Shown: positions 57,618 through 59,470, counted from the stretch's first letter. The stretch: 64,000 nucleotides of DNA from the human T2T-CHM13v2.0 reference genome, Homo sapiens (GCA_009914755.4 CP068257.2:7904001-7968000); one strand, 5' to 3'. A program made the numbers and translations. The notes: generated from the letters alone by a model not told the origin.

Positions 57618-58321
57618 CTCCAATGATCTATGCATCCATCTCAAAAATCCCAGCAAATTAAGCTGAATGAAATTAAAATGATGGAAATAATAAGGATAAA
57701 AGCTGAAATCAATGAAAAAAAAACCAAAGACATAATAGAGAAAATATAAAAAGCCAAAGCTGTTTCTTTGAAAACAGTATTCCAGTTGCTAATCTCTGTG
57801 GCAGCCAGCCTCCAAAATGGCCGCCGGTGATTTTCGCTTCTGCTATCCATGCCTTGTGCAGTTCTCTCTCATATTAAATATGGCTGACCTGTGTTATCAG
57901 AAAGCTAGTTCAAATTTTCTAGGCTAGATTATAAAACACATGGCAGCTTCCACCTTTTTCACCCTGGGTGAAAGTAGCTACCATACTGCAAGGACATTCA
58001 AGCAACCCTACAGAGCTTAATGCATTACATTACAGAGGTCTTCTGCTAACAGACAGCATTAACTTGCTAGCCATGTTAAGTGAGCCGTCTTGAAATTGGA
58101 TGCCCTAGCCTCAGTCAAGCCTTTGGATGACTGCAGGCCTAATCAACATATTGACCAAGACAGAACAACCTAGCTAAAGCATTTCTCAAATCAGGACCCA
58201 CAGAAGCTCTATATTAGTTTGCTATTGTTGTATAACAAATGAACATCTCAGGAAATATACATATATTGTCTAGTATATTTTCTCTTATACAGTTTCTGTG
58301 GGTCAGGATTTCATTTAAGAA

Positions 58322-58842
58322 AATACATGTTTATTCTTTTTTAAGTGGTTTTTTTACTTCCTTTTCTTTAAATTTATTTTTTATTTCAATAGGTTTTTGG
58401 GGAACCGATGGTGTTTGGTTACATGAATAACTTCTTTAGTGATGATTTCTGAGATTTTAGTGCACCCATCACTCGAGCAGGGTACACTGTATCCAATGTT
58501 TAGTCTTTTCTCCCTCATCCCCCTCCCACCCTTTCCCCTGGGTCCCCAGAGTCAATTGTATCATTCTTATGCCTTTGCATCTTCATAGCTTTGCTCCCAC
58601 CTATAAGTGAGAACATATGATATTTGGTTTTCCATTCCTGAGTTACTTCACATAGAACTAGTCTCCAATTCCATCCAGATTGCTGCAAATGCCATTATTT
58701 TGTTCCTTTTTATGGCTGAGTAGTATTCCATGCTACATATATACCACATTTTCTTTATCCATTCGTTCACTAATGGGCATTTGAACTGATTCCATATTTT
58801 TTCAGTTGCAGATTGTGCTGCTATAAACATATGAGAAAAGGC
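58322..58842 (-). mobile_element. L1 3' end fragment (ORF2 C-terminus + 3' UTR), antisense, 5'-truncated exactly where the next Alu begins
   Basis: Minus ORF 58648-58830 MFIAAQSATEKIWNQFKCPLVNEWIKKMWYICSMEYYSAIKRNKIMAFAAIWMELETSSM matches the L1 ORF2p C-terminus (..MFIAALFTIAKTWNQPKCPSMIDWIKKMWHIYTMEYYAAIK..). Antisense 3' UTR text TTTTGGGGAACCGATGGTGTTTGGTTACATGAATAACTTCTTTAGTGATGATTTCTGAGATTTTAGTGCACCCATCACTCGAGCAGGGTACACTGTATCCAATGTTTAGTC. Confidence 0.75.
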
Positions 58843-59145
58843 CAGGCACCGTGGCTCATACCTGTAATCCCAGCCCTTTGGGAGGCCAAGGCAGACAGAT
58901 CACCTGAGGTCAGGAGTTCAAGACCAGCCTGACCAACATGCAGAAACCTTATCTCTACTAAAAATACAAAATTAGCTGGGTGTGGTGGCACATGCCTATA
59001 ATCTCAGCTACCTGGGAGGCTGAGGCAGGATAATCGCTTGAACCCGGGAGGTAGAGGTTGTGGGGAGCTGAGAGCACACCACTGCACTCCAGCCTGGGAA
59101 ACAAGAGTGAAACTGTCTCAACAAAAAAAAAGGGAGAAAAAAACG
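58840..59145 (+). mobile_element. Alu SINE, sense, abutting the truncated L1 above
   Basis: GGCCAGGCACCGTGGCTCATACCTGTAATCCCAGCCCTTTGGGAGGCCAAGGCAGACAGATCACCTGAGGTCAGGAGTTCAAGACCAGCCTGACCAACATGCAGAAACCTTATCTCTACTAAAAATACAAAATTAGCTGGGTGTGGTGGCACATGCC ... GAAACTGTCTCAACAAAAAAAAAGGGAGAAAAAAAC. Confidence 0.9.
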
Positions 59146-59149
59146 TATT

Positions 59150-59470
59150 TATTCTCTCGTATTTTCTGTGGGTCAGGAATTTGGTCACAACTCAACTGGG
59201 TTCACTGCATAGGGTTTCACAAGGTTGCAGGCAAGGCGTCAGCTGAGCTAGGTTCAAGCTCATTGAGGTTGTTGACAAAATTCATTTCCTTATGTCTGTA
59301 TGATTGTGTAGCTATGTTTTTTATTGGGTATTGGCTGGAGGCCACCCTCAGGTCCTAGACACCACCTGCTGTTGGGCTTCCTCAATATGGTCACACACTT
59401 CATCAAATCAGCAAGGAGAATCTTGTGTGCATGCCAGCAATATGTCTATCTCATATCCTAATGTATGTCT
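59150..59470 (+). mobile_element. MaLR-type LTR fragment (MLT1-like), sense
   Basis: Begins TTCTGTGGGTCAGGAATTTGG (MLT1-type LTR start TGTGGGTCAGGAATTTGGG) then ..GGGTTCACTGCATAGGGTTTCACAAGGTTGCAGGCAAGGCGTCAGCTGAGCTAGG.. Confidence 0.45.

What the first reader, a model, noticed from the sequence alone, without database searches (positions are those of the whole stretch)
58286..59185. Chimeric L1(antisense 3' end)/Alu(sense) insertion bounded by a ~35-bp imperfect direct repeat inside a MaLR LTR
The left flank is TATATTTTCTCTTATACAGTTTCTGTGGGTCAGGATTT. The right flank is GTATTTATTCTCTCGTATTTTCTGTGGGTCAGGAATTT, and only the right copy continues into MaLR LTR sequence. Between them lie an L1 3' fragment in antisense (poly-T side at the left, 5'-truncated at 58842) and a full sense Alu with its poly-A at the right. 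The two abut with no intervening sequence. Having a 3' tail at each outer edge and a single pair of flanking repeats resembles twin-priming-type or template-jump retrotransposition, here giving an L1/Alu chimera. The alternative is two nested independent insertions.
Basis: partly seen in the sequence, partly recalled or inferred. Interest (0 to 1): 0.5.

Follow-up and report, generated by a model that had tools for sequence, protein, structure and literature searches.

The report
Head-to-head L1 and Alu insertion
An old L1 tail fragment and an Alu sit head-to-head inside an ancient LTR in a primate genome; this is most likely two ordinary successive insertions, possibly one member of an already catalogued class of inverted Alu/L1 chimeras, so it matters little either way.

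Summary
The parts are real. An antisense L1 3' fragment (58373-58832, T-rich tail 58338-58372) abuts a full-length sense AluSz-like element (58840-59119, A tail to 59133), with both tails facing outward. However, its left copy lies 26 nt from the L1 tail, so it is probably not the target-site duplication (TSD).

A shorter repeat abuts both tails: AAGAAAATACATGTTTATTCT (58317-58337) against GAGAAAAAAACGTATTTATTCT (59134-59155). It matches 15/18 in its core (P=0.0026). The 36-bp repeat is then a local duplication specific to this LTR copy.

I could not separate one event from two:
- **For two events:** a 7-bp repeat, GAGAAAA, flanks the Alu alone.
- **For one event:** the best L1-endonuclease site (TT/AAGAAAA) sits at the Alu side of the outer TSD.
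- **Uninformative:** non-CpG ages overlap (0.081 against 0.056). Only ape-level orthologues could be retrieved, and all carry both elements.

Inverted Alu/L1 chimeras bounded by one TSD are already catalogued (Law and Burns 2026: 452 loci, about 17% antisense). This locus's TSD strings are not in that table. My estimate is about 55% sequential nesting and 30% single-event chimera. Interest is low.

The parts
57781..58209 (.). Outer LTR (A), left part. It is interrupted by the inner LTR.
   Evidence: When A is joined to 59743-59819 and reverse-complemented, it aligns to the inner LTR with score 68. The highest of 200 shuffles scored 37. The left boundary is approximate, read.
58210..58337 (.). 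Inner LTR (B), left part, inverted relative to A. It holds the left copy of the 36-bp repeat and the left TSD candidate.
   Evidence: It begins TATATTAGTTTGC and aligns to the reverse complement of the end of LTR A. The sequence was read.
58276..58311 (+). Probably a duplication specific to LTR B rather than a TSD.
   Evidence: 29 of 32 aligned bases match, with a 4-nt gap, and 0 of 5000 shuffles reach the score. It lies 26 nt from the L1 tail. LTR A has only one copy of this unit.
58317..58337 (+). Left copy of the TSD candidate (D3), AAGAAAATACATGTTTATTCT. It is followed directly by the L1 T-rich tail.
   Evidence: core 58320-58337 matches 15/18, P=0.0026. The extended match of 17/22 was counted by hand.
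58338..58372 (-). L1 3' A-rich tail, which reads T-rich on the + strand.
   Evidence: In the alignment to the 73-copy consensus, the paralogues carry poly(A) at this position.
58373..58832 (-). L1 3' fragment: the C-terminal end of ORF2 plus the 3' UTR, 5'-truncated.
   Evidence: ORF2p match at E=1.3e-15. It aligns to the paralogue consensus with 10-11.6% non-CpG divergence.
58833..58839 (+). GAGAAAA between the L1 and the Alu. Either the left copy of an Alu-private 7-bp TSD, or L1-end sequence plus filler.
   Evidence: The exact 7-mer recurs at 59134-59140, directly after the Alu tail. About 1% of random 7-mers from this window occur in that region. A composition-preserving shuffle gives P=0.30.
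58840..59119 (+). Full-length dimeric Alu, AluSz-like.
   Evidence: Two Metazoa_SRP matches on the + strand.
59120..59133 (+). Alu A-rich tail, AACAAAAAAAAAGG.
   Evidence: Read.
59134..59155 (+). Right copy of the TSD candidate (D3), GAGAAAAAAACGTATTTATTCT. Its first 7 nt are the second GAGAAAA.
   Evidence: The sequence is identical in all retrieved orthologous contigs except two, which carry two substitutions.
59146..59181 (+). Right copy of the ~36-bp repeat (D1), continuous with the rest of LTR B.
59156..59742 (.). Inner LTR (B), right part. It ends ...CTATCACA and contains a (CA)n microsatellite at about 59510-59543.
59743..59819 (.). Outer LTR (A), right part, resuming after LTR B.
   Evidence: It is colinear with 57781-58209 in the alignment to LTR B.

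Best explanation
This is ordinary, sequential nesting of dead repeats, in four steps.
1. An old LTR (B) inserted in inverted orientation into a related LTR (A).
2. B carried, or later acquired, a local duplication of a ~40-bp unit.
3. A 5'-truncated L1 3' fragment inserted in antisense orientation by target-primed reverse transcription. The + strand was nicked after ...TTTATTCT, and the event left an 18-22 bp TSD (58317-58337 and 59134-55).
4. An AluSz-like element later inserted in sense orientation, right at the boundary between the L1 5' end and the right TSD copy. It duplicated the 7 nt GAGAAAA (58833-39 and 59134-40).

Shown: the identity, orientation and extent of the L1 and the Alu; the three repeat pairs; the LTR-in-LTR nesting. 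Inferred: the order of events, which repeat is which TSD, and that the L1 and the Alu arrived separately.
For: - The D3 repeat abuts both tails, as a TSD must. It is unlikely by chance (P=0.0026).
- D1 does not abut the L1 tail. It is a duplication of internal LTR sequence that the related LTR A lacks.
- An exact 7-mer flanks the Alu alone, at precisely the two positions an Alu TSD must occupy.
- The L1 looks as old as or older than the Alu. Neighbour-joining terminal branches at non-CpG sites are 0.081 for the L1 (432 sites) and 0.056 for the Alu (225 sites).
- The window is Alu-dense, with at least 33 other Alus in 64 kb. My own rough genome-wide estimate gives tens to hundreds of Alus landing at an L1 5' junction by chance.
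- The TSD strings of this locus are absent from Table S4 of PMC13174262, the catalogue of 452 Alu/LINE-1 chimeras called by contemporaneous arrival plus a TSD. This is weak evidence that the locus was not scored as contemporaneous.
Against: - The Alu-private repeat is only 7 bp and is A-rich. A composition-preserving shuffle gives P=0.30. Seven bp is short for an Alu TSD, which typically runs about 10-20 bp (established knowledge).
- Both endonuclease sites this model needs are poor. The L1 site is TTCT/CT. The Alu site reads AT/GAGAAA on the + strand.
- The best site in the area, TT/AAGAAAA, sits at the outer TSD edge on the Alu side.
- The model needs the Alu nick to coincide with the L1/TSD junction to within a base or so.
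- The age difference is only about 1.2 standard errors (my calculation).
- The model needs an independent, unexplained local duplication in LTR B, with a 14-nt spacer (58314-58327) of unknown origin.
Confidence: 0.55

Rival explanations
1. A single-event antisense Alu/L1 chimera formed by twin-type (dual) priming.
1. The L1 endonuclease nicked the bottom strand at TT/AAGAAAA, and that end primed on the poly(A) of an Alu RNA.
2. The top strand was cut 21 nt downstream. Its T-rich end (...TTTATTCT) primed on the poly(A) of an L1 RNA.
3. The two cDNAs were joined head-to-head, leaving one 21-bp TSD around both elements.
For: - The geometry is exactly as predicted: left TSD, T tail, antisense L1, sense Alu, A tail, right TSD.
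- The only near-canonical endonuclease site lies at the Alu-side edge of the outer TSD. The L1-side edge is merely T-rich, which is all a second primer needs (read; the TT/AAAA motif is as used in PMC13174262).
- The class exists. There are 452 TSD-bounded Alu/LINE-1 chimeras, 83.2% of them sense, so about 76 are antisense. Twin priming is the mechanism proposed for opposite-orientation chimeras.
- Table S4 of that paper includes antisense entries and L1PB1+AluSz pairs.
- The ages are statistically compatible.
Against: - The exact GAGAAAA on both sides of the Alu alone would have to be a coincidence. That requires L1-end sequence plus four filler A's to reproduce the first 7 nt of the right TSD. 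The chance is about 1% for random 7-mers from this window.
- The L1 point estimate is older than the Alu's. The catalogue authors report very few chimeras that pair an older L1 with a younger Alu.
- The locus's TSD strings are not in their table.
- In that paper's framing (of the text, read) the LINE-1 is the element carrying extra sequence at its 5' end, i.e. the primary partner. This model needs the Alu to be primary.
Confidence: 0.3
2. One reading: the ~36-40 bp repeat (58274-58313 and 59145-59183) is the TSD of the insertion, whether chimeric or L1 alone. The 26 nt between it and the L1 tail would then be a 3' transduction or filler.
For: - The repeat is by far the strongest similarity in the region (0 of 5000 shuffles).
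- With a single copy of this unit, LTR B would be colinear with LTR A.
- Read on the L1 strand, the 26 nt contain AATAAA about 18 nt from their end, like a downstream polyadenylation site (read).
Against: - It needs an unusually long TSD.
- It needs an L1 RNA with at most 3 terminal A's next to the TSD.
- Its nick site is poor (ATTT/GG or TTCA/GG).
- It leaves the 15/18 match between 58320-58337 and 59138-59155 to chance (P=0.0026).
Confidence: 0.07
3. The reverse order. The Alu inserted first at TT/AAGAAAA with the 21-bp TSD. The L1 fragment later inserted exactly between the left TSD copy and the Alu 5' end, without leaving a TSD of its own.
For: This gives the Alu a canonical endonuclease site and a normal TSD length (read).
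Against: - The L1 would lack its own TSD. The expected copy of ...TTTATTCT between the L1 and the Alu is absent.
- The L1 does not look younger than the Alu.
- It needs the same positional coincidence as the main model.
Confidence: 0.05

Closest known systems
Antisense Alu/LINE-1 chimeric insertions (Law and Burns, Cell Genomics 2026, PMC13174262; 452 loci, 16.8% antisense)
   Same: A 5'-truncated L1 3' fragment and a mostly full-length Alu joined at the L1 5' end in opposite orientation. One TSD of at least 7 bp surrounds both. The elements are primate-age, and L1PB1+AluSz pairs are listed.
   Different: - Membership in that catalogue needs contemporaneous arrival in a multi-species alignment, which I could not test.
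- Here the good endonuclease motif is on the Alu side, not the L1 side.
- A 7-bp repeat private to the Alu is present.
- The TSD strings of this locus are not in their Table S4.
Classical twin priming (Ostertag and Kazazian 2001; cited as a reference in PMC13174262)
   Same: Two reverse-transcription reactions start from the two ends of the staggered break. This gives inverted segments within one TSD.
   Different: In classical twin priming the second primer anneals internally to the same L1 RNA. The inverted piece is therefore L1 sequence without its own poly(A). Here the inverted partner is a different RNA with its own tail.
Same-orientation chimeric retrocopies such as U6/L1 (template switching or RtcB ligation, PMC6789731)
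   Same: Two RNAs are copied into one insertion that is bounded by one TSD.
   Different: Those chimeras are colinear, in the same orientation, with a single 3' tail. This structure is head-to-head with two tails.
Ordinary nested Alu-in or next-to-L1 insertions
   Same: Each element has its own tail and a candidate TSD of its own. This arrangement is extremely common in Alu-dense primate DNA.
   Different: The Alu TSD candidate is only 7 bp. The Alu nick would coincide with the L1 5' junction.

Membership tests
LINE-1 (3' fragment) | Encodes the ORF2p C-terminus, followed by a 3' UTR and an A-rich tail | tested here: met
   ORF2p residues 1195-1251 matched at E=1.3e-15. 116 metagenome contigs share a 20-mer with this fragment, and 73 non-redundant paralogues align along its whole length.
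Alu | Dimer of 7SL-derived monomers with an A-rich linker and an A tail, about 280 bp | tested here: met
   Two Metazoa_SRP matches on the + strand.
Antisense Alu/LINE-1 chimeric insertion (twin-priming type) | L1 and Alu joined at the L1 5' end, opposite orientation, tails outward | tested here: met
   4-7 nt of uncertain origin lie at the junction.
Antisense Alu/LINE-1 chimeric insertion (twin-priming type) | One TSD of at least 7 bp that flanks the composite and abuts both tails | tested here: met
   58320-58337 against 59138-59155, 15/18, P=0.0026. It contains an exact 8-mer, TTTATTCT.
Antisense Alu/LINE-1 chimeric insertion (twin-priming type) | Both parts arrive together: present or absent together across species | not testable with these tools
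   Only ape-level orthologous contigs were obtained, and all carry the full structure. Pattern scans for an Alu-empty allele found nothing relevant. A second protein search found nothing.
Antisense Alu/LINE-1 chimeric insertion (twin-priming type) | Neither component has a TSD of its own | tested here: inconclusive
   An exact GAGAAAA flanks the Alu alone. About 1% of random 7-mers from the window would do the same. A composition-preserving shuffle gives P=0.30.
Antisense Alu/LINE-1 chimeric insertion (twin-priming type) | Components were active at the same time (similar divergence) | tested here: inconclusive
   Non-CpG terminal branches are 0.081 for the L1 and 0.056 for the Alu. The difference is about 1.2 standard errors.
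Classical twin priming (L1 inversion) | The inverted segment derives from the same L1 RNA, primed internally | tested here: not met
   The inverted partner is an Alu with its own A tail.
Template-switch or ligation chimeras (U6/L1 type) | Both parts in the same orientation with a single 3' poly(A) | tested here: not met
   The parts have opposite orientations and there are two tails.
Sequential nested insertions | Each element is bounded by its own TSD, and an orthologue exists with only the older element | tested here: inconclusive
   L1 TSD candidate D3 is met. The Alu TSD candidate is only 7 bp. No orthologue with only the older element was available.
MaLR (MLT1-type) LTR as host | Similarity to an MLT1 consensus, TG...CA termini, 5-bp TSD | not testable with these tools
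   No repeat library was available. Two related LTR-like units nested in opposite orientation are shown. The MLT1 label is from my memory of consensus sequences.

The most novel reading that the evidence does not exclude
The locus is an uncatalogued single-event, inverted Alu/L1 chimera in which the Alu, not the L1, was the primary target-primed template. The canonical endonuclease site would then be at the Alu tail, and the L1 RNA would have been captured by its poly(A) at the second-strand break. In other words, dual priming on two different polyadenylated RNAs, with the non-autonomous element leading.
Probability: 0.3. Interest if true: 0.3.

Novelty: already known. Interest (0 to 1): 0.13.

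Why it matters
It matters little. If the insertions were sequential, this is routine repeat nesting in Alu-dense primate DNA. If it was a single event, it adds one locus to the roughly 76 antisense Alu/LINE-1 chimeras already catalogued. Its only modest point of interest would be that the Alu end, not the L1 end, sits at the endonuclease site.

The practical lesson concerns how to read such cases. The longest flanking repeat is not necessarily the TSD. The repeat that abuts the tails should be sought first.

Tried and rejected
- **Orthologue hunting through ORF look-ups.**
  - The 169-aa ORF right of the site gave 9 proteins. Their contigs were all ape-level, or did not reach the site. L001 and L003 are assembly chimeras. 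L002, at about 93% identity, starts at window position 59318.
  - An exact look-up of the window ORF found nothing.
  - A 72-aa query abutting the site found no homologue at all.
- **Pattern scans for an Alu-empty allele.** Metagenome contigs gave 0 hits. Genome contigs gave one chance hit in a Burkholderiales genome assembled from a metagenome.
- **Scans for the LTR motif, to build an LTR consensus.** 0 hits in viral contigs and 0 in genome contigs. No other copy turned up in the window or the fetched loci. An L1 3'-end pattern also gave 0 hits in viral contigs.
- **Age test.** I rebuilt an L1 consensus from 73 paralogues and an Alu set from 24 copies. Divergence from the majority consensus, counts of private changes and neighbour-joining terminal branches all overlap between the two elements. 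About half of the L1's mismatches are at positions that vary between subfamilies or behave like CpG sites. A clean subfamily assignment was not possible without Dfam.
- **Test for a larger tandem duplication in the reconstructed empty site.** TRF found nothing. The similarity upstream of the unit is not significant (P=0.21).
- **Other library searches.** Pfam gave no hit for the L1 ORFs. Rfam at gathering thresholds gave nothing.
- **An idea I rejected.** I first thought the related LTR A also carried the duplication. The colinear alignment shows A has a single unit.

Full report
**What is there**

Reading 57600-60000 shows, from left to right on the + strand:
- LTR-like sequence up to 58337.
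- A T-rich stretch at 58338-58372.
- An antisense L1 3' end up to about 58832.
- The 7 nt GAGAAAA at 58833-58839.
- A full-length Alu starting GGCCAGG at 58840 and ending ...CTGTCTC at 59119.
- An A-rich tail, AACAAAAAAAAAGG.
- Then GAGAAAAAAACGTATTTATTCT, followed by LTR-like sequence again.

The L1 identification is tool-based. The minus-strand ORF 58648-58830 matches LINE-1 ORF2p residues 1195-1251 at E=1.3e-15. A 20-mer from the fragment retrieved 116 metagenome contigs. From these, 73 non-redundant paralogous L1 3' ends align along the whole fragment.

The Alu gives two 7SL-like matches on the + strand, below the Rfam gathering score.

**The host**

The host is not one LTR. The sequence 57781-58209 continues at 59743-59819. 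Joined and reverse-complemented, it aligns to 58210-58337 plus 59156-59742 with score 68, against a maximum of 37 in 200 shuffles.

So an inner LTR (B) sits in inverted orientation inside a related outer LTR (A). This explains the inverted copy of the motif at 58188-58213. Calling these LTRs MaLR/MLT1 rests on my memory of consensus sequences. No repeat library was available.

**Three direct repeats**

| Repeat | Coordinates | Similarity | Position relative to the tails |
|---|---|---|---|
| D3 | 58320-58337 (AAAATACATGTTTATTCT) and 59138-59155 (AAAAAACGTATTTATTCT) | 15/18, P=0.0026; extends to 58317-58337 and 59134-59155 at 17/22 | Left copy runs straight into the L1 T tail; right copy follows the Alu tail |
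| 7-mer | GAGAAAA at 58833-58839 and 59134-59140 | Exact; about 1% of random window 7-mers occur in the right-hand region; composition-preserving shuffle P=0.30 | Immediately 5' of the Alu and immediately 3' of its tail |

In target-primed reverse transcription the TSD abuts the tail. D3, not D1, therefore has the position of a TSD.

Taking D1 as the TSD would require four unlikely things together:
- a TSD of about 40 bp;
- an L1 RNA ending in at most three A's;
- a poor nick site;
- a chance origin for D3.

I therefore read D1 as a local duplication of an LTR unit. LTR A has only one copy of that unit, so the duplication is specific to B. Its 14-nt spacer (58314-58327) is unexplained. Evidence for a larger tandem unit is not significant (P=0.21, and TRF found nothing).

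**One event or two**

With D3 as the outer TSD, two models fit.

*Sequential insertion.* The L1 inserted first, with the + strand nicked at TTATTCT/CTCG and D3 as its TSD. The Alu later inserted at the boundary between the L1 5' end and the right TSD copy, duplicating GAGAAAA.

*Single event.* The bottom strand was nicked at TT/AAGAAAA and primed on Alu poly(A). The top strand was cut 21 nt downstream and its T-rich end primed on L1 poly(A). The two cDNAs were then joined head-to-head.

| Favours sequential | Favours a single event |
|---|---|
| The Alu-private 7-mer sits exactly where an Alu TSD must be | The only near-canonical endonuclease site is at the Alu-side edge of D3 |
| The L1 point estimate is as old as or older than the Alu | Sequential insertion needs two poor sites (TTCT/CT, and AT/GAGAAA on the + strand) |
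| The window is Alu-dense, with at least 33 other Alus | Sequential insertion needs a short 7-bp Alu TSD |
| The locus's TSD strings are absent from the published chimera catalogue | Sequential insertion needs the Alu nick to coincide with the L1 junction |

I tried rough likelihood bookkeeping with assumed rates. The ratio swings by an order of magnitude either way depending on those assumptions, so I do not treat it as decisive.

**Ages**

I removed CpG-like columns and built neighbour-joining trees. One used the L1 with 72 paralogues. The other used the Alu with 24 other Alus. The terminal branches are 0.081 (432 sites) and 0.056 (225 sites). That difference is about 1.2 standard errors.

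Divergence from the majority consensus is 10.2% for the L1 and 7.6% for the Alu. Private changes are 3.2% and 4.0%. Roughly half of the L1's mismatches to the all-copy consensus fall at positions shared by 15% or more of copies. So subfamily structure and CpG decay blur the L1 estimate. The ages do not discriminate between the models.

**Orthologues**

The decisive test is an orthologous site lacking the Alu, or lacking both elements. It could not be run.
- Protein-indexed look-ups and DNA scans returned only contigs 97-99% identical to the window. All have the same left TSD region, L1/Alu junction and right TSD region.
- One contig at about 93% identity, which looks like an Old World monkey, starts at 59318 and misses the site.
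- Scans for an Alu-empty allele found nothing relevant.
- A second protein query found nothing.

**Comparison with what is known**

- 83.2% are in sense orientation, so about 76 are antisense.
- 77% date to before the split of New World and Old World monkeys.
- Twin priming is named as the route to opposite-orientation chimeras.
- Their Table S4 lists antisense entries, and also L1PB1+AluSz pairs.

The strings TTTATTCT, AGAATAAA (in the context of this TSD), CTGTGGGTCAGG and their complements are not in that table for this locus. That is weak evidence that the locus was not scored as contemporaneous.

The structure is not classical twin priming, because the inverted piece is a different RNA with its own tail. 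It is not a U6/L1-type chimera either, because the orientations are opposite and there are two tails.

**Verdict**
- The 36-bp repeat is real but is probably not the TSD.
- Whether this was one event or two cannot be decided with the data reachable here.
- My estimates are 0.55 for sequential nesting, 0.30 for a single-event antisense chimera, 0.07 for the 36-bp repeat being the TSD, and 0.05 for Alu first.
- Either way the thing belongs to known kinds, and interest is low.

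Noticed in passing
window 59982-61222 and 47334-48574: A 1242-bp segment is 94% identical to the reverse complement of a segment 11.4 kb away. This is an inverted segmental duplication. It stops about 160 bp right of the outer LTR, so it offers no paralogous empty site.
   Followed up: partly
window 57300-60730 against loci L074, L004, L006, L010: Contigs assembled from human-associated metagenomes differ from the window by about 1% (33 mismatches in 3362 bases). 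Several of those differences are shared by all the contigs. The window may come from a non-human great ape or from a divergent haplotype.
   Followed up: partly
window 57781-58209, 58210-59742, 59743-59819: An LTR-like element is nested in inverted orientation inside a related LTR-like element. This creates the inverted repeat 58188-58213 / 58286-58311 (85% complementary).
   Followed up: partly
window 58314-58327: A 14-nt A-rich spacer, TTTAAGAAAATACA, lies between the two copies of the duplicated LTR unit. It has no counterpart in the related outer LTR. Its origin is unexplained.
   Followed up: partly
window ~59510-59543: A (CA)n microsatellite inside the inner LTR differs in length between the orthologous contigs. 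It is also where contig L001 switches to unrelated sequence.
   Followed up: no
L003:1-111; L001:252-10429: These public metagenome contigs carrying host DNA are assembly chimeras, joined inside the Alu or at the (CA)n tract. This is a caution for anyone using such contigs as orthologues.
   Followed up: yes
whole window: At least 33 further Alu copies lie in the 64 kb. That is about 1.4 times my remembered genome-average density, and it raises the chance of coincidental Alu/L1 adjacency.
   Followed up: no
window 57600-57780: A-rich sequence with an ORF reading like the L1 ORF2 N-terminal region on the + strand lies immediately left of the outer LTR. This is a separate, older L1 fragment, read only.
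   Followed up: no
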